From Mobula hypostoma (lineage: Eukaryota), in assembly GCF_963921235.1 (NCBI RefSeq), contig NC_086097.1:81098001-81162000 (forward strand): DNA of 64,000 nucleotides. The letters run 5' to 3'. The notes under the pieces were generated by a model, which had not been told where the DNA came from, did no database searches, and worked only from the letters and a program-made list of their open reading frames with translations. The stretch's first letter is position 1. Every line of letters starts with the position of its first letter. This document shows, in pieces, positions 2,640 to 60,637 of the stretch. The position numbers and the translations under genes were made by a program.

Positions 2640-2783
2640 CACTCCAACTTTCAAATCTCCTACTCACTCTTCCTTCAGTTAGTCCTGACGAAGGGTCTCG
2701 GCCTGAAACGTTGACTGCACCTCTTCCTAGAGATGCTGCCTGGCCTGCTGCGTTCACCAGCAACTTTGATGTGTGTTGCTTGA
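2640..2783 (+). mobile_element. Penelope-like element pseudo-LTR fragment with hammerhead motif
   Basis: Matches the 3' unit of the GIY-YIG-bearing copies at 5005-5980 and 28185-28822. Confidence 0.85.
2681..2716 (+). ncRNA. Minimal type-I hammerhead ribozyme motif
   Basis: AGUC-CUGACGA-AGGGUCUCGGCCU-GAAA-CGUU-GACU: stem I AGUC/GACU, core boxes CUGANGA and GAAA, a stem II hairpin, and palindromic ACGU in place of stem III. Confidence 0.75.
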
Positions 2784-2951
2784 GGAAAACTTTGTGGCTT
2801 CTCAAACTGTCGTTTCGGGGACAGATATTAGCCTAGAATCAGACTCAAAGCTCCGCTAACATGAATCATCCCCAGGTTTAAACCAAAACTTATCACCCTG
2901 ATTTAAAGGTCATAACTATCCTAAGACAACCCGAAGGCTTGAAGGGTGGAA

Positions 2952-3569
2952 GGAGGAGAGAAAGCAGCGCGCCGTGAATGCGCAGCTCTCCGGTGAAAAA
3001 TGATATCGTATCTGTTAAATAGAGGCCGTGGACAATTCTGATTTGATGGAGAGGGATGTGAAAGAACAGAGGAACATCTGGAGAAATTTCTGAAATGCTC
3101 ATTCGCTGCTGTCATACTGCATGGTCGGGGATCTTCCAGAAGGTAGGCCTCAAAATCCCCGGTTTTGCCTGCTGTTGGCGACAAGATTGAGGTCGAATCG
3201 CTCGGACAGAGATGGCGCTCAGTACTCGGTGTCGGAGAGCTGATTCGGAGGCTCGAAGTTTTCGGATTACTCAGAGATGGATTGTGGTCGGGCATGGCAG
3301 GAAGAGTTTTTCTTCCTTCTCCCGTCTGCATAAGATGTGGGACATTTGAGAGATTTTGAACTTTTACTGTGCTCATGGACTTCTTCATCAAGTTATGGTA
3401 TTGTTGCACTGTTGTAACTATATGTTATAATTATGCGGTTTTGTCAGTTTTTTCAGTCTTGGTCTGTCCTGTGTTTTGAGATATCACACCGGAGGAAATA
3501 TTGTATCATTTCTTAATGCATGCATTACTAAATGACAATAAAAGAGGACTGCGTGTCTTCATAATCTAA
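2952..3569 (+). mobile_element. Non-autonomous LINE-derived retroelement (SINE-like), copy B
   Basis: Diverged reverse complement of 1815-2497. Ends AATGACAATAAAAGAGGACTGCGTGTCTTCATAATCTAA. Confidence 0.75.
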
Positions 3570-4315
3570 AGAGGAAATGAAATCTGTCTAGAACTCCACC
3601 TGAATTGAGGAGTGAAAGAAAAGGATTTTGAATTCAAAACCCTGAGCTGTTTGTGGAAGAGTTTGTATAAATAGTGTATTTCATGCCGGACATGATGCAC
3701 TGGATTAGTCCCCATTTACAAACTCTATTTAAAGTAATATTCCATTTCCACTGAAATCTTAGAATAGAGCTTCTAGATGAATGGTTATCAGCAGGAAGCA
3801 GAAAAAGAACGCTGACAGCAAAACCGACAATGAACAACTAACAATTTCGGATCATTTTGCCAACTGCTACTTAGGAAACCACGTTTAAACTAGACTGATT
3901 TTGCAACATGCTATTAAAGCTGACTTTGATATGCATAGAAAAACCTTGAATGCATGCATGTGCTTTTGCAAACAGCACCTTGCCTAGAACATCAATTTGC
4001 AACCAATAGCAATGATATCACACAACAGATGGTCTGCAGGAAACATTCCTATTCATGACATGTTCTATAAAAGTTTAAAACATACATCCTTCATTGTTAT
4101 CTGATTTATCTTACAATTCTAAGGCAAACATTGGTAGCATATTAGCCAACTCTAATGACAAAGACCGGGATTCAGATACACAGAGGCTGTTTATTAACAT
4201 ATCAACAACTAGCAACATCTACAAAACCCAGATAAGAAACTGAATATTTCTTCTAAATCCATCACATAATTTTAGTCCTATTTCAGCTGTTAAAAAATCA
4301 GAAAGAACAGAATAC

Positions 4316-4474
4316 CTTTATGGCAGATTTCGATCGACAGTAACAAATTGCAGCAACTTTGAATTCTGCGTGCTGAAGTGATTGGGGCGTCAAAAGGAAG
4401 TGAGCTATTGATCACATCAGTGAATGCTTCCGTTAAATTCTCAGCTTTTAGTTTCACCACGTTGGTGACCACAT
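4316..4474 (-). CDS. Candidate internal coding exon (159 nt, phase 1-1) of an unidentified gene
   Basis: ttttctaag|AT GTG GTC...CAT AAA G|gtattc. Open frame VVTNVVKLKAENLTEAFTDVINSSLPFDAPITSARRIQSCCNLLLSIEICHK in unique DNA that retains CpGs. No homolog recognised. Confidence 0.25.
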
Positions 4475-5004
4475 CTTAGAAAATGCTGTAATTACAACAT
4501 TTGCATATCTTCCAAAATGATTACCACTCTTTTAAACTACTCAAAATGTCAGAGCAACACCTTATGTAAAATTGTTCTGCTATTTGTTGCTCTATCATTT
4601 CTCTTCCTAGTGACATAATAATTAGTATTGATTGGCAAAGTTATTTTTAAAGAATATCCCCCAAAATAAATCTACTTTAAGAATTAATCACTGAAGAATA
4701 TTTTGATTTCTAAGACAGAAAGAAACCATCCAAAAATACTTAAATTCTCTTAAAGGTTGATTGAAGATTGAACAGAATGCATAGCATTCTTTCCCCAAAG
4801 GTTTCCAGAATAACTAAATGATTCAAGCATTTCTCTTGCCCTAATTTCAAGTAATATGCTGTTACTGAAACCATCTACTGCTGAGAGAAAGAAGGTTAGG
4901 TATCATAGAGTTATAAAGTCATAGAACAGTACAGAAACAGGCCCTTCAGTTCATCTAGTCTGTGCCAAACTATTTCTGCTCTTACCCCATCCTCCTGCCA
5001 CCCT

Positions 5005-5980
5005 ACTAGGGATAGCGTTCTTCTTATCCTCACCTACCACCTCACCAGCCTCCGAGTCCAGCACATAATTCTCTGCAACTCCCGCCTTCTCCAACAGGAT
5101 CCCACCACCAAGCACATCTTTCCCTTCCCCCAGCTCTCTACTTTCTTCAGGGATAGCTTTCTACGTGACTCCCTTGTCCATTCATCCCTCCCCACTGATC
5201 TCCCTCCTGGCACTTATCCTTGCAAGCAGAAAAAGTGCTACACCTGCCCCTAACCACCATTCAGGACACTTCACCTGTGAGTCTGTTGGGGTCATATACT
5301 GTGTCTGGTGCTCCCGGTGTGGCCTCCTGTGTATCGGTAAGTTCTGACCTACACTGGGAGACCACTTCACTGAGCAGCATCCGCCAGAAGAATCAGGATC
5401 TCCCAGTGGCCACTCATTTTAATTCCACTTCCCATTCCCATTCTGATATGTCAATCCTCTGCTGTTGCAATGAGGCCACACTCAGGTTGGAGGAACAACA
5501 CCTTATATTCTGTTTGGATAGCCTCCAACCTGATGGCACGAACATTGATTTCTCGAACTTCCGGTAATGCCCCACCCTCTTCATCATTCCCCATCCCTTT
5601 TCCCTCTCTCACTTTATCTCTTTGCCTGCCCATCACCTCTCTCTGGTGGTCCTCCCCGTTTTTCTTTCTTCCATGGCTTCTGTTTTCTCCTGTCAGACTT
5701 CCCCTTCTCCAGCCCTGAATCTCTTTCACCAAATCAACTTCCTGGCTCTTTACTTCATCCCTCCCCCCCCCCCCCCCACAGTTTCATCTATCACCTCGCT
5801 CCCCTCCCCCACCATTTAAATCTACCCAACTTTCTTTTTCTCCAGTCCTGCTGAAGGGTCTCCACCTGAAATGTTGACTGTACTTTTGTTTCCCTATAGA
5901 TACTGCCTAGCCTGCTGAGTTCCTTCAGCATTTTGTGCGTATTGCCTGGATTTCCAGCATCTGCAGATTTTCTCTTGTTT
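5005..5980 (+). mobile_element. Penelope-like element (Neptune-type) 3' fragment: GIY-YIG endonuclease remnant plus pseudo-LTR with degenerate hammerhead (5843-5880)
   Basis: PPGTYPCKQKKCYTCP..HFTCESVGVIYCVWCSRCGLLCIG and PVATHFNSTSHSHSDMS..RLEEQHLIF..LQPDGTNIDFSNF; then CAGTC-CTGCTGA..GAAA-TGTT-GACTG. Confidence 0.85.
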
Positions 5981-7202
5981 ATTATTCTGCCTTGTCACAT
6001 TGACCTGCATCTGGAGCACAGACCCCCAGGATCCTCTCGTCTATGTACTTAATCCAAATTTCTTTTAATGCTGAAATCACACAAAATGCTGGAGGAGATC
6101 AACTGATCAGGCAGCATCTATGGAAATTAATGAACAGTTGATGTTTCAGGCTGAGATCGTGCTCTCTTTTCCACCCTAAAAACCTGTGATGATGCTTTGA
6201 AGGAATTATGAATCAGTATTCCAAGATTCCACCATTCTACCATACTACTCAGTGCCCTACCATTCACCATGAAAATACGACTCTGGTTTGCTCTCCCAAA
6301 TTGCAATACCTCACATTTGTCCACATTAAATTCCATCTACCATTTTTCAGCCCATTTTTCCAGCTGGTGCTGATCCCACTGCAAGTTTTGATACCCTTCC
6401 TCACTGTTGACTCTACCCCCATTTCTCGATGTCACCCACAAATTTGCTGATCTAGTTTACCACATTTTTATTCAAATGACAAACAGCAATGGCTTCAACA
6501 TTGATCCCTGTAGCACACCACTAGCCACATGTCTCCAGTCAGAGAGGCAACAATCTACTGACACTCTCTGGCTTCTCTTGTAAAGCCAATGTTGAATCCA
6601 ATTTACTTCCTTATCCTGAATGACAAGTGACTGAACCTGCTTGACCAATCTCCCACATGGTAACTTATCAAAGGCCTTGCTAAAGTCGATGTAGACAACA
6701 ACCACTTACTTTCCTTCATCAACTTTCCTGGTAACTTCCTTGAAAAGTTATATAAGATTGGTTAGGCATGACCTACCATGCACAAAGTCATGTTTACTAT
6801 CCTTAATCAGTCCCTGTCTGTCTACTTATTAATATATCCTGTCCCTTTGAATTGCTTTCAATAACTTACACGCTACATATCTCCGGCTCACCAGCATGAA
6901 ATTTCCCTTCTTATTCTTGGAGTTTTTCTTGAACAAGGGAACATTAGCTATTTTCCAGCACCAAACCCGCGGCTAATGAAGTTTTAAATACCTTTACTGG
7001 AGCCCCTGCAGTTTCTACACTAGCCTTCCACAAGACACAAAGGAACATGTTATCAGGCCCTGTTGATTTATCTACTCAAATTTGTCTCAAAGTCAGTAAG
7101 CACCTCCTCCTCTATGATCCGTACATGGTCCCATGACCACACTGTGATTTTCTCTCAGTTCCATAGACTCTGTGTTCATCTTGTAAGTAAATACAGATGC
7201 AT

Positions 7203-7360
7203 AGAAACTCTGCAGGTCAGACAATATCTATGGAAATGAATAAACAGTCGACATTTCAGGCTTAGACTCTTCAACAGGACTGCAAAGGAAGGGTGAAGAT
7301 GCCAGAATAAAAACGTGAGGGGGAGAGCGAGGAGAAGAAAGACAAACTAAAAGGTGATAG
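7203..7360 (-). mobile_element. Penelope pseudo-LTR fragment with hammerhead variant (7245-7282)
   Basis: Minus strand CAGTC-CTGTTGA-AGAGTCTAAGCCT-GAAA-TGTC-GACTG, inserted in a CR1. Confidence 0.75.
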
Positions 7361-8618: not shown

Positions 8619-8778
8619 TACTTTCCAAGATTTCTACTGCAAGATACCGGATAATAAAATTAAACAACTGGATACTTTAAAAGGAAGTTAGCACCTATTT
8701 TGATTCTCCAATAGGAAATAGAAAGAGACCATATTTCATGTTATTTCTCTAGATTAATATTTCTCAGATGTTGCATTT

Positions 8779-11375: not shown

Positions 11376-12199
11376 TTAATTGAGGAGTTAACCTAAAATC
11401 AGGCATGTTTTCAGGCTTCCTTCAATTTTACTCAATGTGAGGGTTCTATTTTGCCCCAAATGCAGCAAAGGGCTTGTTTCTATGAGTACCTGCAGCATGG
11501 TTTGGTCAGATTACTGGTTTTTCTGCTCATCCATAGTGAGCCCATCAATATTATAGCTGTCTCTACACGCTTGAGCTGAATGGTTATCAGACAGAGCATA
11601 AATGAAGCTCAGCTTTCATTACTTTAGCTTTGCTTCACATGACCAATGACCAAAAACAGCCTCAATGATCCAGTCCAGCCAGGCAAAGATAAGACACGGA
11701 GAGAAATTCAGTGCTGGATAGCGACATCTTATCCTCAAATGCTATCATTCCAGTTATTATTTTCTATGCATGAGTTCTCTTTTTCAAATTAAAGGAAGCC
11801 CTTTTGGGAAATCAAAATTGCTTGCTAAGGATTTTACCCTTCTTACTAATATGTTCAAAGTTGTGTTTATTGTGACTGATATTATGGTTATGTAAGAGGC
11901 ATATTAAGCTGAATTTTAATGCAGTAAATTTGGTGTAATAAGTCTGTCCAGTTCTTGAAAAGTGAGTACAAGGAGTAATTATTTAACAGATTGTGAATAT
12001 GAATAATCTATATTTCCACAGAGAACACCAGGCATGTTAATTAGGAAGTGTGTACATATTTAGGTTAGCTTGATAGTTGTTCATTATTAATAGTGATGAT
12101 TCGTGTGACTGTTGTTAGGTTTTTCATTATAACTGTATGATTGCATCAGTTACTTTGGTTTATTCGTCTAACTATACAGATCCCAAGCATGTTATTTAT

Positions 12200-12665
12200 T
12201 AATTTCCATAGATGCCGCCTGACCTGCTGAGTTCCTCCAGCATTTTGTGGGTCTTGCCTTGGTTTTCCAGCATCTGCGATTTTTTCTCATGTTTGCCATT
12301 TATGAAATCCTATTTCCCCGATATACCCACTCTAACATCCCACTTCACCCAGTCGTTACCAGCTATGTCTTCAATTTAGAACATAGAAAATCTGTAGCAT
12401 GCTACAGGCCCTTCGGCCCATAATGTTATGCTGACCATATAACCTACTCTAGAAGCTGCATCTGGAATTCCTTCACTAAGTCTAACTTTGCATCCTCTTT
12501 TAAAAAGCCTCTTAAACCCCACCCTCCCATCTTGTTAACCAAGCTATTAGTTACTACACCACATGATCTGTCCTGATGAAGTGTTCAGGCCTGAAAAATT
12601 GACTGTTTATTCCCATCCACAGATGCTGCCTGACCTGCTGAGCTCCTCCAGTACATTGTGTATTA
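12200..12665 (+). mobile_element. Two Penelope pseudo-LTR fragments (12200-12295; 12568-12665 with CTGATGA..GAAA) flanking a minus-strand CR1 tail (12375-12470)
   Basis: GATGC.GCCTGACCTGCTGAG.TCCTCCAG unit occurs twice; CTGTC-CTGATGA-AGTGTTCAGGCCT-GAAA at 12568-12596. Confidence 0.7.
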
Positions 12666-13966
12666 CCCACCTTCTCACTACCTTTAACTTAACATCCATA
12701 TTTTCCCCTCCATTTACACCTCTGAAGAAACTTGCAAAGGTGTCAGCAAGGCAAGCAGTGGCTTAGTTCCTGCTAGTGCTTCGCTTAAAATCAACAGTCA
12801 AACTTTGGAAGTGGACATGCAGGTGTAACCATATTCCACATGAAACTGAACAAATAACTGGGCATGGCCATAAACATTTTAGTGGAGTCAGCCTCAACAA
12901 TTAGATAGTTCAGTACAACATAGAGGGCTGAAGGGTCTGTTCTATGTTTGAAGGTTCCTGAATCTGGTGGCTAATGTTGATATTTATTTCCTGGACAATG
13001 CAACCCAATCAATAGATGTGATTGGCCAGGTTGGCTGCAAGCCTTGGTACCAATTTAAAATAATCACCTGGATTGCAGAGAATTTCGAAGGTAATTGAAA
13101 AATAAATTGTGCCTAAATTTCTCATTAATATACTACTTGAAGAGTGAAAATCTTACAGTGGCCTACAATAGATACACTGGCAATGTGGATTTTAAGAGTT
13201 CCTAAGGCTGTTATGTTCCTGAGCAGTTAATTATTTTGACATATTAGCACAATTAAAGTTTTATGAAAGCATTACTGCTATTTGTTTGCAAGGTTTAACC
13301 AGACCAATGGCTGCACAGCAATTCATTTCAATCTCCGTCTATAATGGTCATGGTTTTCTCATGGTTAGATGACCTTTCAGCACCCATTTCCTCTGAAGCA
13401 CAAAAAGGAACAGGTCATTAACTGGGAAAACATGCAGCACTCATCAGCCTTCACCAAATATCATCATGTTTTGTAGCTGATGTAACTGAACTCATAATGT
13501 GCTCTCTAAAGTTTATTGCATGCACTCAGTGACATTTCAGCAAGGCTGGTGAAAGGGCTTTAGCTTGCAGTTGTGTGCGTAATAATAAGGCAGCCAATCT
13601 ATTAGATCTAATAAGTTTCAAACAACTGCCAGTCAAGATCTCAATTACACTAATGAAGAAAGTCATACAATTACCCTTCAAAAATATCTATTGAACAGAA
13701 AATATATGACAAGGATTCTTCAGCTGGCTGTATATTGAGAAACATCAAGGACACAGGTCAAATCCCTTGAGCAGAATCCTCCTGAAAAGTTCTTCTTGCA
13801 CTGAACCTAAGGACCAACGAATCTCAATAATAACTGAAGGGGGAAGAAAAACCTACAGCTTTGTCAGCAGTTCAGTGAGGGTAATGGTGCACTGTGAATT
13901 ATTTTTAAAAATATGTGCACCCACCGCACTGTTTTTTGTTTATCAGTCTTAATAACATCCTTGCAG

Positions 13967-14529: not shown

Positions 14530-15620
14530 AACAGCTTCCAGGTAAGGTAGTGATTCGCTTGTATTTCTTCCAAACCTGTATGCTGCATTAGGTGTTCTCA
14601 ATATGGTCTCTTCTACAATGAAGAAGCCAAGCACAGAGTGGGCAATTGGCAATGAATAAGACTGTAGAAGCTAGAATATGAAAAAGTGAGAAATGCTGAA
14701 AGAATTCAGCCAGTCAAGCCTCTTCTCAGAAAAAAAAGCAACCAATTAACATTTCAGCCTGAGGACACCACATCAGAACTGAGAAAGGGAGAAGAAAATT
14801 AAATTGTCGAGCACCTACTCTCAGTACACAGGACTGACCCTGGGTATCCGGAGCCTGCCACTTCAATTCCCCATCCTTTTCTCACTCTGTTCTCTCTGTC
14901 TGTGATCTCATCCACTATTACAACAAGGCCCAACGTAACAGCTCAACTGTGTACACTGCAGTTTGCATTTGTTGAAAGTTGGAGAATTCATTATTGCATT
15001 CTCCAACTTTGGATAACTGTCTCTGTCAGAACTGTCCATTTTTGCCTGCCAGTTTTCCACCAATACAAAGGGGCATAACTTTAAGGTGTTTGGAGGGAAG
15101 TGTGGAAGGATGCCAGAGATTTCATACGGAGTAGTAGGTGTGTGGAATCCACTGTTATAGAGACTTTTAGATAGGCACGTGGATGAAAGGAAAATGAAGG
15201 ACTATTTGGGAAAACTAATAGGGTTGGGCACAACACTGTGTGCTGAAGTGACTGCACTGTGTTGTGCTGCTCCATGTTCTATTTTTCCCTTCCCCTTTCT
15301 TCCTCAAATGTAGATCCTGCCTTGCTGGGCATTTCTGACTCTACAACCATAGCAGCACACTGTACAAAGGAGCTTGACTACCTTTTTTTTAAATGGTCTT
15401 TTTATTTTTTCAGCCATATAAGAAAAATTCCTTTTCCTCAACTTATTGCCCTCCCCATCTTGTCTGCCACACAGACAAACTTGTTTCTGTCTTTCTCAAG
15501 TTGAATGAAGGGCCTCAAACCTGAAACATTAACTGTTTCTCCTACATTGACGATGCTTCACTGATAAAGTTTTTAAGCATTCACAGCTTTTATTGCAAAT
15601 TTAAAGCATCTACAGTATCT
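14530..15620 (+). mobile_element. Very old Penelope-like GIY-YIG/pseudo-LTR remnants with a nested CR1 3' end (15060-15285)
   Basis: Degenerate matches to 5005-5980 (CACTTCAATTCCCCATC..; TGAAGGGCCTCAAACCTGAAACATTAACTG); CR1 3' motif AGGGGCATAACTTTAAGGTG. Confidence 0.55.
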
Positions 15621-16549
15621 CTTGAATTTTGAGAAATAATGCTATTTTAAATTAATCGGCAGTGGCTTAAAGTTTTTATTTTAATTTTGTATTTTCTGTT
15701 TTACAATGTTTCTGATAAGGCTGGGACCAAGGATTGAGTCCCAGGGGAGAATGGATAGTGACTCAGAGGCAGAGCAGATGACCCACAAGAAAACAGGTTG
15801 TTTCCACTATCTGCATATCACAAGCCAAAATTAGAAGACTATTAGCTTATATGTATTAAAAAATAAAAATAGAAAGCATTAGTAACCCTCAGTTGGTCAG
15901 GCAGTATCATAGAAAGAGAAAGAGAGCGAGAAGTTTCAGGTCAAAGAACCTGGAATGAGAATAAACACATTATTCTTAAGGTCCAGAGAGAATGGAAAAG
16001 AGATGGATCTCTTTGAAAAGGTGAGGCTAGAGCTGCCAGGTTGAAAAGTGTTGACGTATTTTTTGGCTGACAGGTTAATGAAGGAAGTTAGAGAGAAAGA
16101 AAGCAAAGGAACATCGAAAGACTGAAATGCAGAGGCATTGGAAACGTCTGTGCTTGTAGAGGGAGAAAAACTGAATCAATATTACAGAAAATTGTTTTTT
16201 TGCCTATTGTCTATTGTAGTAATAATTTACAAGGAGCCAAGTCATCTTTAATTGATTTCCACTATCAATGTTTGTTACAGACACTGGATATTTGAAAATT
16301 ACATTCAACTGATATCAATGGAAGGTTGTTATTAGCAATGTCAACAGAAGCAATTTATGATTCAAGATAATAGTTTAATTTTAGTTATCTTACTGTACTA
16401 GTGATCACGATCTTGAAGTTAAAACTCCATTCCATACCATAAAAATGTAAAGAAAAATAATGAGGTAAATATGGAATGAGAAATTTAAATCAGGAATATT
16501 GATTATGAAACTAACAGCTAGTGATAAAGAAACTGATTCCCCAATGTAA

Positions 16550-28184: not shown

Positions 28185-28822
28185 CGCAAACACGAGGAAT
28201 TCTGCAGATGCTGGAAATTCAAGCAACACAGATCAAAGTTGCTGGTGAACGCAGCAGGCCAGGCAGCACCTCTAGGAAGAGGTACAGTCGACATTTCGGG
28301 CCGAGACCCTTCATCAGGACTAACTGAAAGAAGAGCTAGTAAGAGATTTGAAAGTGGGAGGGGGAGGGGGATTTCCAAAATGATAGAAGACGGGCAGGTG
28401 GGGGGGATGGAGCCAAGAGCTGGACAGGTGATTGGCAAAAGGGATATGAGAGGATCATGGGACAGGAGGCCCAGGGAGAAGGAAAAAGGGGAGGGGGGAA
28501 AACCCAGAGGATGGGCAAGGGGTATAGTCAGAGGGACAGAGGGAGAAAAAGGAGAGAGAGAGAAAGAGTGTGTGTATATAAATAAATAATGGATGGGGTA
28601 CGAGGGGGAGGTGGGGCATTAGCGGAAGTTAGAGAAGTCAATGTTCTTGCCATCAGGCTGGAGGCTACCCAGACGGAATATGAGGTGTTGTTCCTCCAAC
28701 CTGAGTGTGGCTTCATCTTTACAGTAGAGGAGGCCGTGGATAGACATATCAGAATGGGAATGGGATGTGGAATTAAAATGTGTGGCCACTGGGAGATCCT
28801 GCTTTCTCTGGCGGACAGAGCA
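28185..28822 (-). mobile_element. Penelope-like element 3' fragment (GIY-YIG C-terminus plus pseudo-LTR), well preserved, with TSD
   Basis: DLPVATHFNSTSHSHSDMSIHGLLYC..RLEEQHLIFRLGSLQPDGKNIDFSNFR; flanked by TTGTTTAAGCA(C/T)GC at 28174-28187 and 28823-28836. Confidence 0.9.
28286..28321 (-). ncRNA. Minimal type-I hammerhead ribozyme motif
   Basis: AGUC-CUGAUGA-AGGGUCUCGGCCC-GAAA-UGUC-GACU: canonical core, GGGU/GCCC stem II, GUC cleavage triplet. Confidence 0.8.
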
Positions 28823-29671
28823 TTGTTTAAGCATGCTGTTTGGGAAGGCAAGTGTGGAAGGCGATAGGCTTTTTTTCTGGCCCTATAATAACCTAGACTA
28901 GGTGTGAGGATGACTCCTTCTCCAGGTATGAGATGGGCAGACCAGGTTTTGGATTGCTGAGTTAGTTGTGTACACTTGCCTGTTTGCTCTGTGGATTTAG
29001 ACAGCAATCCTAACAACGGAAATAAACTTGCTGCCAACATGAAAGGACGATGAAACAAGAGCATAGATGGAGTTAAGATAAAAACAGATATGATCAAATT
29101 GCATGAAAAAGCCTTGCATAACTTAATACATGTAAATTCAACAAATGAAGAGGAGCTGTTTTCAAGAAATTACTGGATTGAAAGAATGTAAAAGAGATGG
29201 TACACACTAGGAGCTGAAGATAGCAAGGTGAGGTATTTAGTGTCGTTACTGCTCTTTTCCAAGGGCATGTATGAGGGATAGAAACTAGAGTTCACTTGGC
29301 ATCTGAAGCAGCAAAGTGGTTGGACGTGGAATGAACTGTTTTAAAATGTACTGGAGTGCAGAGCATGAAGGATTATCAAGGAACAGCTGCCTGTGAATAT
29401 GTAGTAGGGAAGAGGAGGCAGAGATGGAGATTACTAGCAGAGAATGAGTAGTCAAAACAGTGAGGAAAGATATTTTCCTAATGAAGGGTCTTGGCCCAAA
29501 ATAATGAGTAATTTCCCTCCATAGATGACTTGCTGAGCTCCTCCATCATTTACTGTGTTTTACTCAATATGTTCTGCAGAATCTCTTGTGTTACAGATAT
29601 TTTGACGTGGGAAGGCAAAAAATCACCATATAAAAAGGTGAGGGCAAAACAACCGGATGTGGTATTTGTAA

Positions 29672-29801: not shown

Positions 29802-29849
<48 letters not shown>

Positions 29850-39870: not shown

Positions 39871-40274
39871 TAAGTCACACACAATACAAAAGTAATATTA
39901 CCACAAATAAATTAACAAATAATAAGATGCATTTATGACACAAGCCAAAAAGTAAACAATATAACACTACTTCAATGACCACAGCACAACTGAGGTTAAG
40001 TTGGTTTTGACCAGCAACATCTGATGAGTTCATGTTCCTGCTCAATGTTACTACTAGTCTGCACAAACATTATTTGCAAACTAAACAAAATTTTAAAAAA
40101 TGCAAATACATACAGAAAATGCTGGAAACACTTCTTATGTGAGGCAGCATCTATGGAAAGAGAAACCGAGAAAAAGTTTCTGGTTTAAGATTTGCAAACT
40201 AAGACTTTCTGATTAGGATCTTCATGCTTGGCCTCATGAATGTTTAAAGCATTTTCTGTGTTTATTCAAGGACC

Positions 40275-47044: not shown

Positions 47045-47394
47045 AAAAACAAGCTAAGTACAGCGAATGGTTCCAAAAAGATCCTACCTGGCCAGGGAGT
47101 ATGACCGGGACTTACAGGAGATCAAAGAGTCCAGAAAGCGAAGATTCCCTAAGGCTCATGCTGAGGATTTTCCAGCTTTATCCCACCTCAGCCAGGCTCA
47201 TCTAGAATTAGGATGCGTGCTTATATATTCTGAGATTTGGAACAAAAAGGTAATCTATTTATATTTAAAATTATTTTATTTAATTTCATTCTTTTTAATT
47301 ATTCCACACTGTTTTGATGGAGTAGATTGCACAGATGACTGGCCACTGAGAATCACTGCTACATTACATACGTGAGTATGTTCAACTCCTCCAC

Positions 47395-48275: not shown

Positions 48276-49229
48276 GCGTGCGCAATGTAGTTTAGGTACA
48301 TGCACAACTCCTCCGGAGGCCTCACACTAAGGCTTTGGCTGATTTTTTTGGTCTATTATTGCCCAAAGCCTCTTTAATTAAATTAGAGTAAGTTCATGTT
48401 TTAAAATACTTTACAGTAATTTTTATAGTTTTGAATATCACTAATTATGATAACTCCTTAGTTATCCAATAGTGCAATCCAAGAGGTGAGGTGGCATCCC
48501 CATCCTTGGGTATTCCAGGGATGTGACTTTAGCAGTTTGTCAGCCAAAACCTTCTCTTCTGTGAAACATCACAAATCTACACCCAGGGACAGACAGTCAG
48601 CTTCCCTTAACCCACCTCATATCCAGCCTGGGTTAGGCATAGGGGAGCAGAGACTACAGGTAGAAATTCTAAGCAGTGGTTCAAATCCAACACAATACAA
48701 CCTCTTCCTTGTACTGCACTATATTTTGCTTTTCCAGTTAACTTATTCCAAATTACTTATTTCAAACAAAACAATTGAGCAAATCTTACACATGCAGCTA
48801 TTTTCAAATTCAGCAGAGATTCGATTTACTGAGATTGAATGCACGTTGGAAACATCGCAAAATGAATTCATTCAGCCTCTTGTGTCAAAGCTGTTCAATC
48901 AGTACAGACAGCTCCTCAAAGGAGACATGGACACTTTGAAATAAAGCCTTTGATATACTGAGAATAGAAAACATTCTATTTACTTATTCTGCTTTCAAAA
49001 TCATCTAGTTCCCATTTTTTTTACTTATTTAAATGTGCAACATTATTAGTAATGCCAATCACTGTTATAAAGCCTGACAGCTACAGAAATATACTCCAAA
49101 ATGCTCTTTTGAATGTTTTAAATTCTGCCTTTGGATAAACAAGTTTCAAGAGAAGCATGTAATATCCAAGGATGATAATTTTGTTCATGTCCCAATATTC
49201 GAGTTAAAATTTTGTCTCCAACTTGATGC

Positions 49230-49950
49230 CATGAACATCTATTTCCCCATCCCCCGGCAATTTCTCCCCATTCCCTTTAATCATATCATTTTCCATTCAC
49301 CATTTTGGTTCACCTACTGCCCCTTCTCTTCTCTTCACCTACCTATCACTCCCCTCTCGTGCTCCTCCTCCTTCTCTTTCTTCAATGGTTCATTCACACT
49401 GACTTCACTCTCTCAAACGCCACACCCCTAACTTAAACCTTCCTTGGTAGCAAAAGCAAATTTCCTGTTAGAATATTGGCCCTTTCCGGTTCATGTGCAA
49501 ACCGTCCATCTTGTACTGGTCTATCCTAGAAAATATACCATTGGTCCAAGAACCTAAATCCCAGCCTTCTGCACCAACAATTTAGCCACATACTTACCTG
49601 ATCCAAATTTTTATTCCTGGACTCAGCATGTGGCACTGGGAGTAATTCACAGATCACTTGCCCTTGATATACCTCACTTTAATGTCTTATTTATACTCAT
49701 TCTGCAGGACCTCATCTCTTGCTTTATCTACAGAACATCATTTGTACCAAGATGTATAATAATCTCCATCTTTTGACACTTCCCCTCGAGAATTTTCTAC
49801 AGCCACTCAGAAACATCTTTGGCCCTGCTAGCTGGGAGGCATCATGTCAACCTGACACCTCTTCACATAACATGTCCCCCTTACCGTTGGGTCTCCTATC
49901 ACCATCGTTCTGACTGACTGCACCCTTTACCTGTTCCTGACCCCGTGACC
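49230..49950. mobile_element. Old Penelope 3' remnant (+, 49230-49420) and probable CR1 ORF1 remnant (-, 49430-49950)
   Basis: The first part is colinear with 5520-5680. The second resembles CR1 ORF1-region sequence from memory, with only weak motifs. Confidence 0.45.
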
Positions 49951-51953: not shown

Positions 51954-53185
51954 TATTCCCATTTGGAACCACAGCAGCTGAAATCTGCAACCACGGTCAC
52001 AGGTATTTCAGTAAGCAACATTGCTTCAAGATGTTGTAAAATCTATTGAACTTTAAAACCAGCAAACTGTGTACAGCAGACCACTCAGGTAGCCAGGGCG
52101 GTTTCCATTATTTAAGGAAGCACGGTTACCACGCAGGTAAAAATGAAATGCAGGCCCTGAGGGCTCCACTCCCTACTTAATATACAGACCCTGGAAACTA
52201 AAATTGAACATCTCAGAGCAGGACTACAGAACCAAAGGGACATCAGAGGCTGCTGTGTACTCTGTCTCACAGAGACATGACTCATACCCTTAGCAGTGGT
52301 GCAGCCCAAGTGTTTCACCATCTATTATGTGGTCTGGACGACGGAATCAGATAAAGGCAGAGATGGTAGAGTTTGCTTCATGATTAACTTATCTTGGTGT
52401 ACAAATATGGCAGTTCTGACTCAGTCCTGTTCCCTGACCTGGCAGTCAGGTGTCGTCCATTGCCTCTGCCGAGGGTGTTCTTCATCGTCACCCTCCACAC
52501 TCAGCCAAAATTAGGCTGACATTGTGATCGACAGTCATGAGACGGCGCCTCCTGGTGCCTTCCAGACCCCTGTGGCAGACTTCAACCAAGCCAGGTTGAA
52601 GAAGTCTCCAACCCAGTACCACCAAGATGTCACCTGTGAAACTGGAGTAGCCAACATACTTGCCCACTCTTACACCGCCCACAATAATGCTTACTATGCC
52701 ATCCCACAGCCATATTCATCAAGTCCAATTGCTTGGTTGTACATCTACTCCTAACATACAGACAAGGACTGATGTTAGCAGCACCAGTGGTGGGATCCAC
52801 AAAGGTATAGTCAAGGGTACAGCACTGACAGGAATGCTTCGAATCAGTGGACTGGATAATATTGATGGATTCATCTTTGGCTCTGAATGAATATGCCACA
52901 GTCAGCACTGACTTCATTGTGACTGTGTGGATGAAGGCGTGCCTTCAAGAACATACCAGACATACCCAAAATAGATATCCAATAATGAACCAGGAGATTT
53001 GCAGTCTACTGAAGTCTAGATCTGTGGCATTCAAGACTGGTGATCAAGAACTCTATACGAAAACCAAGTACAACCTACAGAAAACTATCATAAAAGTGAA
53101 AAAGCAATTTCTAGTGAAGTTGTAGATACAGTCAAATACACATCAACTGTGTCCTATATGGCGAAACATAACATTATAAATGGTT

Positions 53186-53380
53186 GCAACACACACAAAA
53201 TGCTGGAGGAACTCAGCAGGTCAGGCATCATCTATGGAAAAAGTACAGATGATGTTTTGGGCCAAGACCATTTCGCAGGACGCACTTCTTTCCCTAGATA
53301 CTGCCTGGTCTGCTGAGTTCCTCCAGGATTTTGTGTGTGTTGCTCGGATTTCCAGCTCCTGCAGATTTTTCTCCTGTTTG
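53186..53380. mobile_element. Fold-back mini-Penelope insertion
   Basis: GCAACACACACAAAATGCTGGAGGAACTCAGCAG.. is inverted against ..CTGCTGAGTTCCTCCAGGATTTTGTGTGTGTTGC; the host LINE reads through when the insert is removed (AATGGTTG|TGATGC). Confidence 0.85.
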
Positions 53381-54762
53381 TGATGCTTTACTCCCAATGA
53401 ACTCAACACCTTTGATGCATGCTTTGAAAGGGGAGAATAAAACTGTACCTGTGTGAATCCATGCAGTACCTGGCGACCCTATGCTATCTGCATTGGAGGT
53501 TGACGTTAGAACATCTTTCAAGAGAGTGAACTGTTACAGAGCCTCAGGCCCTGATGGTGCACCTGGCAAGGCACTGAAAGCTTATGCTAATCAACTGGCA
53601 GGAGTGTTCAAGGCCATCTTTAAGCTCTTAATACTGCAGTTAGAGGTTCCCAACTGCTTCAAAAGGGCATCAATTATACTGATGCCCAAGGAGAGAAAGG
53701 TGAAATGCCTCAACAAATATTGTCTGGTAGCACTCACATTAACTGTGATGAAGTGCTTTGATAGGTTGGTCATTGCTAGAATTAACTCCTGCCTAAGCAA
53801 CAACTTGGAGCCACTGCAATTGCCTTCCGTTTAAAGCATATGTAATCCCACTGGCTTCCCCCTCGGCCTTGGACCAGCTGGACAACAGTAATACCTACAT
53901 CAGGCCACTGTTTATTGATTACAGCTCAGTATTCAACATCATCATTCCTTTAGTACTAATCAATAAACTTCAAAACCTGGGCCCCTGTTCCACCCTCTGC
54001 AACCAGACTCTCAACGTCCTCATCGGAAGACCAGCCAATGCGGATCAGAAATAACATCTCTTCCTCCTTGACAGTCAACACGGGCGCACCTCAAGGATGC
54101 GTGTTCAGCCCGCTGCTCTACTCTCCCTGTTCCCTCTCTACTCTCTCTCTACACTCAGGACTGTGTGGATAGCCGCAGCCAAACACCATCTATATATTCA
54201 CCGATGTCACTGGTAGAATCTCTACAGAAGTGAGATGATCAGCTGGTTGAGTGGCATTGCAACAACAACTTTACACTCAGCATCAGTAAGACCAAGGAAT
54301 TGATTGTGTACTTCAAGAAGGGGAAGTTGTGAGAACACACACACCCGTCCTCATCAAATGGTCAGCAGTGGAAAGAGTGAGCAGCTTCAAGCTCCTGGGT
54401 ATCAACATCAGAAAGGATTTACCCTGGGCCCAAATATTGATGCACTCATGAAGCAGGACTCCAGTGGTTATACTTCATTAGGAGTATGAGGAGATTTGGT
54501 ATGTCACTAAAGGATGGAGAACATTCTGACTGTTTGCATTACTATCTAGTACAGAGGCTCCAGGATTGAAAACAAACATGCAGACAGTTGTAGATTCAGC
54601 CAGCTCCATCATGGACATTACCTTCCCCATCACTGAGAACATCTTCAAAAGGCAATGCCTCAAAAAGGTGGCATCCATCATGAAGGATCTTCACCATCCA
54701 GGCCATGCCCTCAGGTATTGGAGAGGAGGTCAAAAGCCTGGAGACTCACACTCAGCATTTTG

Positions 54763-56206: not shown

Positions 56207-56718
56207 TTCTTCTCCTTCGCCATCAGGTTCCTGTACGGTCTATAAACCCCTGAACATTACCATGAACAGTTTGCTCTTTTTTGTACTATTTATTTGTTTT
56301 TTTAATACTGATTTCTGTAACTTAGTAATTTTTATGTATTGCACTGTACTGCTGCTACAAAACAACAAATTTCACAACCTGATTCTGATTATGATTCTGG
56401 AATTTCAAATTATGGACCTCACTGGGATACTCTATTCAAAGTAATTGCTTGCTAACAACAGTCCAAGAATCTGCGACAACAGTTTGTAATTAATGTGAAT
56501 AATATGTTAAATGCCTGAAAGAATTTTCAATGGGAGACCATGCTACAAATAGCCAGCAGATATCTGAGCAGAAGAAATGTGCACTTTCTCTCTCTCTAAA
56601 GCTAGCCCACTACTGTATGAAATGCAAATGTGAACTCACAAATTATTTGGTGAGAAAAATCCTTTAATATAAAAACGAGACTTGTATATTTCCAGTTCCT
56701 TAATATTGTTATAACCAG

Positions 56719-57056: not shown

Positions 57057-57639
57057 GCTTTTTTTTTGAAAATCAAAAGAAAACTGCCAATGCTGTTTAA
57101 CTGAAATAAAAAAAACAGAAAATGCTGGCAAAGCTCAGCAGACAAGACAGCATCTAAAATATTGACTAGTTCTCTTTCCATTAGTGTCACTCACCTCGTG
57201 AGTTTGACCAGCATTTTTTGCTTATATTCCAGATTCCATTTTTCTTTTGTTTAGATTTCAGTTTTTTTCAATGACATCCAGCCAATTGACAATGCAAATA
57301 ATCACAAGTAAAATATTCCCATGGCTACAAATGACCTGGTATAATTTTACAGGGTCTAGGCTGAGGAAATACAGTCTTACCTCAACACACAGTCATAAGA
57401 GCGAAACTCAGTTGGAGCATTTCATCTTTCAGAGCTGGGCTGTCAAATCCTAGTGGAAACAAAAAAACAACATGAAACTCTATTCCATATGTCCAAGGAC
57501 ACTGTTACTTAGTTACTGGCAACATAAAAAGGGCTTGTGCTCACTTGTAACTTTTCCTATAAAAAACATGTTTACAACAATGACTCAGATGTTAACTGAC
57601 TTAAAGGAAAAAATTTTAAGTCTGATGGTGCTCAACACA

Positions 57640-58385
57640 GAGTGAAGAATGACCAGGTAAATTACCTGAGTAATAGGCCCAGGCATGGGGAGTGAGGGCA
57701 GATCTTCAAAAAGGCTTCAGTAAGAAACCAAAGGTGAGGACAGGTAAGGTTTTATTTTGCTGTTGATCCTTAATACTTGATTCAGTGGAGACAGGGTGGT
57801 AGATAGGACAGTGGAACACTTCTCCTGCAAGGTGTGGGAAGTCAAGGCATCTCATGGACTCCCTGATGTCTACATCTGTAGGAAGTGCACCCGAGTGCAG
57901 CTCCCAACAGACAAGGTAAAACCTGGAAAGCTGAGTTCAGGTGTTCTGAATTCAGGTTTCCTATAAAAAACATGTTTTTTTATAGGAAAAGTTAACAGTC
58001 TTTTAAGTTAACAGCTGAATTCAGGTTTCCTATAAAAAACATGTTTTTTATAGGAAAAGTTAACAGTCTTTTCCCATGATTGGAAAGTCCAACACCAGGA
58101 GGCACAGATTTAGGGTGAAAGGGGAAAAGAGTTAGAAGGGACCTAAGGGACAACTTTATCCAGGCAGAAGGTGGTGAGAATATGGATTGAGATGCCAGAT
58201 GAAGTGGTTGATGTAGGTACAATAGTATCATTTAAAAAAAAACACTGGGAAATTATGTCGGGGCAGGGCTTAGTGATGTGACCAAGCACAAGCAATTGGG
58301 ACTAGGTGGTTGGGCACCTGGTCAACAGGGACTCTTTAGGCTGACTGGATTGGACTGTATCATGCAGTATTGCTCTACAACTCTA
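57640..58385 (+). mobile_element. Internally deleted CR1: ORF1 N-terminus joined to the 3' end through a palindromic filler
   Basis: SCKVWEV..PDVYICRKCTRVQL (ORF1 zinc-finger-like) at ~57810-57915; CR1 3' region from ~58060. Confidence 0.7.
57946..58072. repeat. Tandem duplication of a ~58-bp unit containing a 32-bp palindrome
   Basis: Units 57946-58004 and 58015-58072. TTTCCTATAAAAAACATGTTTTTTATAGGAAA is perfect at 58026-58057 and has one extra T at 57957-57989. Confidence 0.95.
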
Positions 58386-60050
58386 AATAGGCAGAAGAAT
58401 CAAAATTATTTGGCTGGCTCGTTTTGCAAACTCCTATTCATCAGCCAATTAAAATCATCAGATTATATTACAATATTATCTTTATTAACCATGAGCCATC
58501 AAATGCCAAGGTTTAAGATGACAGCAAATGCAAATTGAGTAAGTAAAGTGAAGCTTTGTTCAAGGTAGCAAAAGTTTATCATCTTTTGCCATTGCTGAAC
58601 TTCGGCTCATGGTCCAGTGAGAACTAACTAACTAATTTAGTCACCAGCTTCCAAATCTATGAAATGCAAAGCACAAAGAATCCAATTTTCTAGTAATAGG
58701 GACTATTTGTCTAGACTGTATCAATAAGCCAAGCCATCTGATTAGCCTCTTAATTAATGCAGGCAAGAATATTGCACATAGCCCATGAACAGCTGAATTA
58801 TTTCAGGTTCCCACAATGGCAATTATGCTTCTTTGAAATCTATGGTAGACAGTTGTCTTTAGCACTTTCAACTCTGTTCTGTGAGAGCTACTGTCAAAAA
58901 CAGCTTAGCATATGGGAATCAAGTCAATATTCTTAATACTAGACCTAGGTGATGTCCACTAAGAATGTGCTTACTTAATCCAGTTCACCAAATAATGCTG
59001 TTTGGCAAAAAAAGATTGCATCAGAGTACTTCATCAGCAACAAGTCTGAGCCTAACACTCTTCCTCCCAGTTAATTTTCATTCCTGGCAACATCCATCCA
59101 CCTTGCAACTTGAGCTGGATGAGGCACAAGAGGCTATTCCACTGAACAAAACAACAAAGCAAAATTTGATGGACACAGATTTTAAAATTATGCAATTCTA
59201 ACTTGCACAGAGATATAGCGTAACTGCTGATTCAGCAAGATTTTGATTAATTGGAGGCTGATCAAACCCTGTTAATTTATTTTGCACACTAAGAATACTT
59301 GCATCTACTTATGAGCAGCAAACCATAGGCAGGAGCAAGGTAGAAGACACATTGGGACAGATGGTTGAAGTGTGTGCATTTTAAAGGGGATGGGGGGGCA
59401 GGTGCACTCTCAATCAGGGACAATATCACAGTTGCACTCAGTTGGGACATAACAGAGGGCTCCATCCACAGAGAGATGCAATCACTCTGGTGCAATTATG
59501 CTACAGATATCTCGATAGTCACATGGTCCTGGAGGATCACTGTTTCGTTTTTACTGTGTACTGTACCAGCAGTTATGGTTGAAATGACAATAAAGGCGAC
59601 TTGACTTGACTTGACTCGACTTAACAATGAGTAACAAATATCCAGGTAGATTAGGGGAAGGTGTGAAAAGTAACAGGATTTTTGTCATGGGTGACTTCAA
59701 TTTCCCTAATATAGACTGGGATCTCCTTTCTGTAAAGAAGTTTAGACAGAGCAGAAATAGATAGGTGAAGAACAGTATATAGATAGTCCAACCAGAGAAG
59801 GGGCTAATACTGCACCTGGTGTTCATGAGCCTTGCCATTGAGCTTTCATTGGGAGAACAGTTCAGGAACAGTAATCACAAATCCTTAAGTTTTAAGATAG
59901 TGAGAGTTAAAAATGAATATGGGCCTGGCAGGAAAATATTAAATTGGAGCAGGGCAAATTACAAGAGTATTGTAACCTGGGAGAGTTAATTGGAACAACC
60001 ATTTTGGGGGCAAGTCCACATCTGATATGAAGAGCATTTAAAGACCAACT

Positions 60051-60130
60051 ATGGGAGTTCCCAACCTAGGGTCCAGATACCCCTTGCTTGATGGTATTGG
60101 TCCATGGCATAAAAAAGGTTGGGAACCCTG
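60051..60130. mobile_element. Short hAT-like MITE
   Basis: Inverted termini GTTCCCAACCT / AGGTTGGGAACCCTG around a ~45-bp spacer. Confidence 0.7.
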
Positions 60131-60503
60131 AACAACAGAGTACAAAACAGATATGTTCTAGTAAGAATAAAGGACAAGGATGGCAAGTTAAGCGAACTTC
60201 AGATGTCGAGAGAGGTGATGAATTCAGTCAAGTAAATGGAAGCATAAGTATATTAGGAAAACCATGAGAGCACAGAATTAAAGACAATCCCAAGGCATTC
60301 AGAATGGTTAGGACCCCCCCCCCCCCACCAAAGGATAAAGGATGAATAATATGCCTGGAGGCAGAGGATTAGAGTGAGGACCTAAATGAGTACTTTGCAT
60401 CAGTATTTACCAAGGAAAAGACATGGAGACTAGGAACATCAACGTGAAGCATCGTACTTTGCTTGGGCATTTCTGGATAAAGGAGGAGGTAGCGAAGCAG
60501 GAA

Positions 60504-60637
60504 AGTCCCGATGAAGGGTCTCAGCCCGAAACATCAACTGTTTACTCTTTTCCATAGATGTTGCCTGCCCTCTGAGTTCCTTCAGTATTTTGTGTGTGTT
60601 GCTTGGATTTCCAGCATCCGCAGATTTTCTCGTTTGT
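60504..60637 (+). mobile_element. Penelope pseudo-LTR unit with mutated hammerhead
   Basis: AGTC-CCGATGA-AGGGTCTCAGCCC-GAAA-CATC-AACT followed by the standard 3' unit. Confidence 0.85.

What the first reader, a model, noticed from the sequence alone, without database searches (positions are those of the whole stretch)
2681..60637. Dispersed family of Penelope pseudo-LTR units carrying a minimal hammerhead ribozyme (~15 copies in 64 kb)
Seen: a recurring unit with consensus (C)AGUC-CUGAUGA-AGGGUCUCGGCCC-GAAA-CGUC-GACU(G). Best copies are 2681-2716(+), 28286-28321(-) and 33697-33734(+). More decayed or partial copies lie near 5843, 6135, 7245, 12205, 12568, 14745, 15500, 15930, 29475, 40110, 53240, 57115 and 60504. 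Two copies are attached to a GIY-YIG endonuclease remnant; most have no coding sequence. The variants AUGUC and ACAUC are the two CpG-deamination products expected from ancestral ACGUC. Established: Penelope-like elements carry minimal type-I hammerheads lacking stem III, proposed to cleave as dimers via a palindromic tetranucleotide, and retrozymes are non-coding hammerhead-bearing retroelements. Inference: this is a very high-copy, largely non-autonomous ribozyme-bearing family that may still be able to cut host transcripts.
Basis: partly seen in the sequence, partly recalled or inferred. Interest (0 to 1): 0.75.

Follow-up and report, generated by a model that had tools for sequence, protein, structure and literature searches.

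The report
Penelope retroelement hammerhead tails in ray
The repeated motif is a real minimal hammerhead ribozyme sequence, but it sits in the broken 3' ends of a known kind of jumping gene (a Penelope-like element) in a ray genome, and the copies look like decaying leftovers, not working RNA scissors.

Summary
The unit is real: all 16 listed places hit a profile (18 hits; 0 in a reversed control). The motif fits the published minimal hammerhead of Penelope-like elements (PLEs). Only 3 of 18 hits pass a hammerhead descriptor (chance 0.03 per window), and each of the three has damaging changes.

The copies are 5'-truncated and inverted insertions of an autonomous Neptune-type PLE of rays, not a retrozyme family. 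Two are framed by 11-bp target duplications, three touch GIY-YIG remnants, there is no tandem array, and endonuclease sequence is about half as deep as the ribozyme in DNA runs.

CpGs in the dimer palindrome and at the cut site decay symmetrically (5:5, 4:3), as in dead DNA, whereas G8 and G12 were kept. Cutting of host transcripts is unlikely.

Extra lead: a splice acceptor lies at the ribozyme's 5' edge, and five clusters of ray gene models carry this unit in frame. Copy number may reach 10^5-10^6. New member of a known kind.

The parts
2635..2784 (+). Tail-less pLTR copy. Hammerhead 2680-2717 (C3 at 2685) has an intact core and ACGU, but G10.1-U11.1 and a GUU cut triplet.
4879..5982 (+). 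Longest 5'-truncated copy: RT thumb/linker with CX4CxxC, GIY-YIG endonuclease broken by stops, frameshifts and deletions (stop codon at 5565), pyrimidine-rich UTR, hammerhead 5843-5880 (A6 changed), tail.
6076..6161 (-). Copy with only the 3' half of the hammerhead
7198..7334 (-). Copy with UTR end and hammerhead (A6 changed), no tail
12198..12297 (+). Downstream part and tail only, no hammerhead
12565..12680 (+). Decayed copy: core boxes kept, palindrome and stem II damaged
14533..15016 (+). Old GIY-YIG remnant in two pieces (14533-14646 and ~14806-15016), split by the 14781(-) copy
14692..14800 (-). Old copy with decayed hammerhead (A9 changed), inside the endonuclease remnant
15497..15560 (+). 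Decayed hammerhead, probably the 3' pLTR of the 14533-15016 remnant, with another repeat in between
   Evidence: linkage inferred from order and spacing
15888..15935 (-). Doubtful fragment
   Evidence: E 0.15
28185..28822 (-). 638-bp 5'-truncated insertion: endonuclease C-terminus (28622-28822, 88% identical to a Mobula protein over the aligned stretch), UTR, hammerhead 28285-28322 (core intact, AUGU instead of ACGU), tail. 11-bp TSD at 28174-28184 and 28823-28833.
29476..29589 (+). Decayed copy starting at the hammerhead's 5' edge (G5, G12, U16.1 changed)
33612..33838 (.). One head-to-head insertion: inverted tail-less arm (33612-33700, -) plus direct arm with tail (33697-33838, +; hammerhead 33697-33734). 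11-bp TSD at 33601-33611 and 33839-33849, inside a LINE fragment.
40108..40183 (-). Old fragment, 3' half of the motif and downstream part
   Evidence: E 5e-4
49212..49391 (+). Endonuclease C-terminal end and UTR without a hammerhead
   Evidence: E 1e-4; sequence
53180..53385 (.). Second head-to-head pair. The tail-less minus arm carries a dead hammerhead; the plus arm with tail starts within a few bases of the predicted cut site. The arms join in helix I. No TSD found.
57108..57225 (.). Probable third, older head-to-head pair; the plus arm is weak (E 0.004 in a local search, about 1 window-wide)
60501..60636 (+). Solo copy from the hammerhead's 5' edge to the tail (U4 changed), in a CR1-like LINE, with a degenerate 12-bp TSD (3 mismatches)

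Best explanation
These are dead 3' ends of a Neptune-type, endonuclease-bearing Penelope-like retrotransposon that amplified massively in a myliobatiform ray. The element's RT-GIY-YIG protein nicks the target and starts reverse transcription inside its own RNA at one of two sites about 35 nt apart (with or without 'tail'). It usually stops early, so every copy shares the 3' end and has a variable 5' end; some are joined head-to-head to an inverted tail-less copy. The minimal hammerhead is part of the pLTR. It was under selection in the master elements, where it probably cleaves tandem transcripts as a dimer or with help from the element's protein. After insertion each copy is a lone monomer that decays neutrally, mostly at its five CpGs. 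Shown here: anatomy, TSDs, protein family motifs, decay pattern. Taken from papers: internal RT start, tail, protein-assisted cleavage. Inferred: clade name (from motifs only), activity of the master's ribozyme, inactivity of the copies.
For: The linker fragment hits 5 RT-EN proteins of Hypanus and Mobula at 62-71% identity. These carry RYIDD-type RT, PCxxxxCxxCP linker and VIYC..C..LYIG endonuclease motifs; P0002 hits Pfam GIY-YIG at E 5e-4, below the curated cut-off. Full-length relatives of 750-920 aa carry the DKG motif; two of them, scanned against Pfam, match RVT_1. 107 of the 112 relatives with the GIY motif also have the linker (154 proteins examined). 11-bp TSDs frame two insertions. 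Both clear inverted pairs have the tail on one arm only, as described in PMC3846280 and PMC8557442 (passages). Endonuclease depth is 0.53 and 0.47 of ribozyme depth in two DNA runs. CpG decay is symmetric at 15.2/16.2 (5:5), 17/1.1 (4:3) and the loop (3:4), but skewed at C7-G8 (8:0) and C11.1-G12 (9:2); pooled 17:2 against 12:12, Fisher p=0.009. Contig alignments break off at both ribozyme edges (28284: 1987 contigs; 28321: 1449 in X1), so subfamilies share the ribozyme and differ in its flanks.
Against: No full-length element or partial tandem lies in the window and no genome was available, so the master is seen only through gene-model proteins. TSDs were sought at 7 loci and 4 (8 different loci): 2 exact, 1 degenerate, the rest none or only 6-bp chance-level matches. 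4-5 copies start right at the ribozyme's 5' edge, which simple random truncation does not predict. Non-CpG core positions change less than the downstream part (6/89 against 99/656, p=0.03); this could be read as selection on copies, though non-core ribozyme positions are equally conserved (11/178) and subfamily differences inflate the downstream count. Depth sums of contigs are not copy numbers (tool warning).
Confidence: 0.85

Rival explanations
1. Besides truncated copies there is a discrete short non-autonomous element (about 140 nt, from the ribozyme's 5' edge to the tail), or short cDNAs made from the 5' end of the PLE transcript, mobilised by the PLE protein.
For: 33697(+), 53286(-), 60504, 29476 and perhaps 12568 begin within about 3 nt of the helix I 5' edge, with non-element sequence upstream. 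In DNA run X5, 490 contigs leave the reference at 28320 with long (median 255 nt), unrelated (agreement 0.33) sequence. The edge reads like an initiator (CCAGT/TCAGT; consensus recalled).
Against: The short copies are close to the long ones in sequence (33697 is about 90% identical to 2681 and 28286). Two of the five starts are inversion junctions. Only 24 of 2544 loose-end rows were shown, so there is no background rate. cDNA fold-back at helix I would give the same end point. The count was made after the pattern was noticed.
Confidence: 0.25
2. The units are non-LTR retrozymes that spread as self-cleaved circular RNAs from tandem arrays.
For: Retrozymes derive from PLE pLTRs and were found in the one chondrichthyan sampled (bioRxiv 10.64898/2026.07.22.740005). 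One contig in a presumed RNA run goes back 104 nt from 28321 to 28218, and one contig in each of three runs repeats 34 nt of the ribozyme.
Against: No tandem array of the unit among 9 rows. Same-strand copies are 2.9-27 kb apart. The copies include ~105 nt beyond the cut site and end at PLE tail positions. The joints are single contigs at 80% likeness, which the tool flags as often false.
Confidence: 0.07
3. Dispersed copies still cleave host pre-mRNAs, as trans dimers or with help from the PLE protein, and so affect host expression.
For: 3 of 18 hits keep all 11 core bases and both stems. The family is abundant in contigs of presumed RNA runs (RNA status is a guess). Three ray gene models contain the whole ribozyme in sense (P0155, P0156, P0157). 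Protein-assisted cleavage is shown for an Anolis PLE (PMC11167929).
Against: Neutral-looking CpG decay at the palindrome and the cut site. Folding probability <=0.01 in genomic context for all three; even alone, two of them prefer a rod that pairs G5 with H17 (0.78, 0.95). No strand bias (9 plus, 9 minus among the 18 hits). Monomers were inactive and dimers weak in vitro (PMC4209133). 8 of 9 Xenopus dimers did not cleave (bioRxiv 2026.07.22.740005). No RNA-seq reads ended at the Anolis cut site (PMC11167929).
Confidence: 0.07
4. The hammerhead likeness is coincidence.
For: No Rfam hammerhead match; folding z-scores of isolated motifs only -0.5 to -1.4; no significant covariation within the window's copies (74 of 500 shuffles reach the score).
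Against: All core boxes, the extra base after A9, G10.1-C11.1, the palindrome and NUH match the published consensus. The position in a PLE pLTR is the expected one. The descriptor chance rate is 0.03 per window. Copies of one family are not expected to covary.
Confidence: 0.02

Closest known systems
Minimal hammerheads (min-HHR) in pLTRs of metazoan PLEs (Cervera & De la Pena 2014, PMC4209133)
   Same: Matches the Fig. S3 consensus (U-rich, NNN CUGANGAH G...C GAAAN palindrome NUH NNN); no helix III; mostly single motifs of truncated PLEs; close in layout to the Acropora, Ixodes and Crassostrea rows.
   Different: No cartilaginous fish among the rows of Fig. S3 or Table S1 that I read. Density here is far higher than the 4,000 and 9,000 motifs reported for coelacanth and Xenopus.
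Neptune clade of EN+ Penelope-like elements (as defined in PMC8557442)
   Same: C-terminal GIY-YIG after RT, CX2-5CxxC linker, CCHH-type endonuclease residues, pLTR, inverted 5'-truncated copies, 30-40-bp tail on one end.
   Different: Clade assigned by motifs, not by an RT tree with named references; Nematis also has a linker finger. No microsatellite targeting at the two TSD-defined sites.
PAc (Poseidon of Anolis carolinensis; PMC11167929)
   Same: Ribozyme about 100 nt upstream of two 3' end points that define the tail.
   Different: Poseidon lacks the linker finger. PAc's ORF starts inside the ribozyme; no ORF start was shown here.
Non-LTR retrozymes (PMC7229834; bioRxiv 10.64898/2026.07.22.740005)
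   Same: Type-I hammerhead, PLE-related, many non-coding monomers.
   Different: Defined by tandem repeats with a ribozyme in each unit; none here. Copies here are linked to coding sequence and show PLE tail and inversion anatomy.
Drosophila virilis Penelope intron (PMC2377424; PMC4209133)
   Same: There the intron's 3' end maps to the 5' end of helix I; here a pyrimidine tract plus AG ends at the same place.
   Different: No donor site or spliced PLE transcript shown here.

Membership tests
PLE minimal hammerhead | Core boxes CUGANGA and GAAA, NUH triplet, stems I and II, no helix III | tested here: met
   3 of 18 hits pass the descriptor; control mean 0.03
PLE minimal hammerhead | Palindromic 15.1-16.1 tetranucleotide, G10.1-C11.1 pair, extra base after A9 | tested here: met
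   ACGU in 77-78% of DNA depth; C11.1 is the majority in DNA runs (U in 41-43%); extra A in 11 of 12 copies. No single window copy has all features.
PLE minimal hammerhead | Located in the pLTR downstream of a PLE ORF | tested here: met
   About 280-300 nt after the endonuclease stop at 5843 and 28286
PLE minimal hammerhead | Self-cleavage as dimer or with protein | not testable with these tools
   Only contigs were available; they cannot show RNA ends
EN+ Penelope-like element | Single ORF with telomerase-like RT and C-terminal GIY-YIG | tested here: met
   Window holds thumb/linker/EN remnants only; RT and EN lie together in ray homologues and in full-length relatives
EN+ Penelope-like element | 5' truncation, inverted adjacent copy, optional 30-40-bp tail, TSD | tested here: met
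EN+ Penelope-like element | Partial-tandem full-length copy flanked by two pLTRs | not testable with these tools
   None in the window; no genome held
Neptune clade | CX2-5CxxC linker between RT and EN | tested here: met
   PCKQKKCYTCP at the end of 5008-5250; 107 of 112 GIY-bearing relatives
Neptune clade | RT phylogeny with named Neptune elements | not tested
Non-LTR retrozyme | Tandem repeats with an intact ribozyme in at least two consecutive units | tested here: not met
   None in the window; rest of the genome not examined
Non-LTR retrozyme | Expression as circular monomer RNA | tested here: inconclusive
   One 'goes back 104' contig in one presumed RNA run
Rfam hammerhead families | Covariance-model match | tested here: not met
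   None among 13 matches at E<=1

The most novel reading that the evidence does not exclude
Rays carry some 10^5-10^6 copies of one hammerhead-bearing Neptune terminus, perhaps the most numerous ribozyme motif in a vertebrate genome. Its 5' edge is a working splice acceptor, the vertebrate counterpart of the Penelope intron end at helix I. The unit then acts like Alu in primates: it is spliced into host mRNAs (C-terminal or internal exons in STARD3NL, SIRT3, COASY, MAPK15 and one uncharacterised model), sometimes with the whole ribozyme in sense, where PLE protein or a second copy could switch on cleavage. Genomic 5' junctions piling up at the helix I edge and at the cut site would be a fossil record of RNA processing in vivo, which no study I read has shown for a PLE ribozyme.
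Probability: 0.2. Interest if true: 0.6.

Novelty: new member of a known kind. Interest (0 to 1): 0.27.

Why it matters
The kind is known since 2014, so the catch mainly adds a ray Neptune family at unusually high density. Its value is statistical. Whether PLE hammerheads cleave in vivo is still open (PMC11167929 found no RNA ends at the site), and a family with this many copies allows the question to be asked from DNA alone: a peak of insertion 5' ends at the cut site would show that cleaved RNA was a template. The acceptor at the ribozyme edge, and the long perfect hairpins made by head-to-head insertions, are likelier routes to host effects than cleavage.

Tried and rejected
Whole-genome census: no genome held.

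Degenerate motif scans of metagenome contigs and viral contigs: 0 loci each.

Rfam: no hammerhead.

Pfam on window fragments: no GIY-YIG hit on the 5 endonuclease-region frames or the 2 (too short or broken); identity rests on homologues.

Sequencing runs: no RNA holder listed on record; all 24 runs are contigs. The two-fold step in depth across the cut site in presumed RNA runs (2.0 and 1.7, against 1.3 and 1.2 in DNA) is not used: contigs cannot show RNA ends.

Joints at 28319 and 28321 towards the endonuclease region are single contigs, some also in DNA runs; not used as splice evidence. A donor-like GTAATG at the 5843 endonuclease stop is not the family norm (no such change at 6% or more in the DNA runs); dropped.

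2681 and 5843 lie 3.2 kb apart on one strand but are not the two pLTRs of one element: they belong to different subfamilies and there is no RT core between them.

An ORF start in the ribozyme or tail: no match to N-termini of 154 proteins.

Covariation within window copies: not significant.

Host gene in the window: 15 candidate frames gave no convincing Pfam family, so intronic orientation could not be tested.

Absence of G8 and G12 changes from the 40 variant rows shown is not counted, since 49 rows were hidden.

Lunse, Weinberg and Breaker (PMC5785218) is not held; I saw only its title in a reference list, and it may include cartilaginous-fish examples. Repbase and Dfam could not be checked. 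bioRxiv supplements (which name the chondrichthyan and its families) are closed. Literature searches for this family in sharks or rays listed no paper on it; this is not proof of absence.

Full report
1. Observation. The repeat is real. Single-copy searches find 13 loci. A profile from 9 copies finds 18 loci at E<1, 17 at E<0.01, and none in the reversed window; the seeds are refound when left out. The unit is about 140 nt: a 38-nt motif and about 105 nt downstream. A descriptor after Cervera and De la Pena passes exactly 2681, 28286 and 33697, against 0.03 per resampled window. Of the 18 hits, 11 span both core boxes or nearly so, and 7 of these have a changed core base; 4 hold only the 3' half and 3 none of the motif. 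So about 15 copies of the unit is right, but 15 ribozymes is not. Rfam finds no hammerhead.

2. The motif. It reads helix I (5 bp), CUGANGA, one extra A, a 4-bp stem II with a 4-nt loop, GAAA, CGU-C, helix I. This matches the consensus in Fig. S3 of PMC4209133 (main text parts 1-3 of 4 and supplement parts 1-2 of 3 read), including the extra base, G10.1-C11.1 and the palindrome. No cartilaginous fish appears in the rows I read. Laying contigs of four runs on 28130-28850 shows C at 15.2 in 77-91%, C at N7 in 68-85% and U at 11.1 in 41-63% of depth (40 of 89 variant rows shown). Alignments of other subfamilies break off at both edges of the motif (28284 and 28321), so the ribozyme is the shared island.

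3. What carries it. Upstream of 5843 lie frames for an RT thumb, a PCxxxxCxxCP linker and a GIY-YIG domain, broken by stops and shifts. The linker piece hits five RefSeq proteins of the rays Hypanus sabinus and Mobula hypostoma at 62-71%, and the 28286 remnant is 88% identical to the Mobula one. The host is therefore most likely a myliobatiform ray (inference). Relatives of 750-920 aa carry DKG, RT, linker and GIY-YIG; 107 of 112 with the GIY motif have the linker. By the definition in PMC8557442 (passages) this is Neptune-type; Nematis is not excluded without a tree. A third, older remnant at 14533-15016 precedes the 15500 copy, and a fourth at 49212-49391 has no ribozyme.

4. Insertion anatomy. 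The 28286 copy is a 638-bp insertion that starts inside the endonuclease and is framed by an 11-bp duplication. The locus 33612-33838 is one insertion, also with an 11-bp duplication, inside a LINE whose two halves are colinear with another copy at 47987-47696. It consists of an inverted arm without the last ~35 nt and a direct arm with them. 53180-53385 has the same build, and 57108-57225 probably too. Head-to-head inversion and a one-sided 30-40-bp tail are described PLE features (PMC3846280, PMC8557442, passages), and PMC11167929 (parts 1-2 of 4 read) ties the tail to two internal RT start sites. No tandem array of the unit exists in the window. In two DNA runs the endonuclease end is 0.53 and 0.47 times as deep as the ribozyme. 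These facts fit truncated copies of a coding element, not a retrozyme in the sense of PMC7229834 (passages) or bioRxiv 10.64898/2026.07.22.740005 (parts 1-3 of 5 read). The latter already reports retrozymes in its one chondrichthyan and PLEs in five vertebrate classes.

5. Are the copies alive? The ancestral motif has five CpGs, and 43 of 106 letters at them are changed, against 6-7% at other ribozyme positions. At the palindrome (5 TG: 5 CA), the cut site (4:3) and the loop (3:4) decay is symmetric. At C7-G8 (8:0) and C11.1-G12 (9:2) it is not (pooled p=0.009). The simplest reading is that active masters varied at N7 and 11.1 but kept G8 and G12, while inserted copies then drifted. Non-CpG core positions differ less than downstream ones (6/89 against 99/656, p=0.03), but that comparison is confounded by subfamilies and by how seeds were picked. 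The three best copies each have a lesion: GUU and G-U at 2681, AUGU at 28286, both U11.1 and AUGU at 33697. Alone they form stems I and II (0.91-0.98), often as an inactive rod; with 40 or 100 nt of flank the stems fall to 0.01 or less. The 33697 copy pairs with its own inverted arm (-160 kcal/mol, z -17). No same-strand partner is nearer than 2.9 kb. Published monomers do not cleave and dimers cleave weakly (PMC4209133); the Anolis ribozyme needs the protein, is dispensable for insertion in vitro and leaves no RNA-seq ends (PMC11167929). Host cleavage is therefore unlikely, though untested.

6. Copy number. One copy per ~3.5 kb and 3 descriptor-positive motifs per 64 kb would give about 10^6 and 10^5 in a genome of a few Gb (size recalled; one window only). 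Depth over the unique flank is 0.7-1.1 million-fold, which the tool says is no copy number; I take it as an order of magnitude only. PMC4209133 reports 4,000 motifs in coelacanth and 9,000 in Xenopus.

7. A lead beyond the finding. The six copies that keep their native upstream sequence have 15-18 pyrimidines in 20 bases before an AG that ends two bases before C3; 3.9% of 8706 AGs in the window reach 15. In D. virilis the Penelope intron ends at helix I (PMC4209133; intron described in PMC2377424, passages). Searching with one translated frame of the unit found five ray protein clusters (2 of 3 candidates; 5 of 1087). Three begin the match at the same residue, VSPDEG; in two of them the preceding residues are unrelated to the element, and in the third two residues could be element-derived. 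In Hemitrygon MAPK15 a 26-codon stretch from the downstream part is present in isoforms X1 and X2 and absent from X3 and from Hypanus. These are gene predictions seen as proteins only, so exon borders are inferred, and some exonisation is expected of any repeat this abundant. Four or five window copies also start at this same edge, and one arm starts at the cut site; a transcript start, splicing or cDNA fold-back at helix I could each explain this.

8. Comparison and verdict. It works like, and meets the sequence criteria of, the PLE minimal hammerhead in an EN+ PLE pLTR; activity was not testable. It fails the tandem criterion for retrozymes in this window. Earlier scan notes reached the same overall view for this and related genomes; they are unchecked AI notes and are not counted as support. 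My searches listed no paper on this ray family, but Repbase, Dfam, Lunse et al. and the bioRxiv supplements could not be seen. Verdict: correct catch, new member of a known kind, interest 0.27; the acceptor and junction lead has perhaps a one-in-five chance of being worth 0.6.

Noticed in passing
window 28319-28325 (-), 5826-5845 (+) and four other copies: Pyrimidine tract plus AG at the ribozyme's 5' edge, a candidate splice acceptor; the unit appears in frame in five clusters of ray RefSeq models (XP_072132000.1, XP_062913069.1 STARD3NL X3, XP_072906100.1 SIRT3 X6, XP_072105350.1 COASY, XP_072911354/5.1 MAPK15 X1/X2).
   Followed up: partly
window 33697, 53281, 60504, 29476, 12568: Four or five copies begin within about 3 nt of the helix I 5' edge; run X5 shows 490 contigs leaving the reference at the same place.
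   Followed up: partly
window 53275-53290: The two arms of the inverted pair are joined through the helix I sequence, and the plus arm starts at about the predicted cut site; a possible trace of cleaved RNA or of cDNA fold-back.
   Followed up: partly
window 33605-33800 and 53180-53350: Head-to-head insertions form long near-perfect hairpins on either strand (-154 and -94 kcal/mol); likely sources of double-stranded RNA if transcribed.
   Followed up: partly
window 14533-15016: An old endonuclease remnant of the family is interrupted by an inverted copy of the same family's pLTR.
   Followed up: partly
window 54866-56239 (-): 457-codon open frame of a CR1-like LINE reverse transcriptase (Pfam RVT_1, E 3e-33), a young copy.
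   Followed up: no
window 38678-39154 (+): Tc1/mariner transposase N-terminal part (HTH_Tnp_Tc3_2, E 1e-18).
   Followed up: no
window 57925-58060: AT-rich palindromic repeat, MITE-like; gives sub-threshold plant miRNA matches in Rfam.
   Followed up: no
window 22884-23510, 35834-36373, 47616-48326, 41303-41767: Fragments of another LINE family (RVT_1 and ALKBH8_N-like C-terminal domain); one such fragment is the target of the 33.6-kb insertion.
   Followed up: no
window 198-852: Frame 502-852 resembles the C-terminal restriction-like endonuclease region of R2/R4-type retrotransposons (recalled likeness; Pfam gave only a weak DUF).
   Followed up: no
window 47058-47375 (+): Frame beginning VQRMVPKRSYLAREY looks like a host exon; no Pfam family found.
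   Followed up: no
window 1027-1052 (+) and 34504-34523 (-): Two further CTGATGA...GAAA matches lack hammerhead stems and fail the descriptor; chance level.
   Followed up: yes
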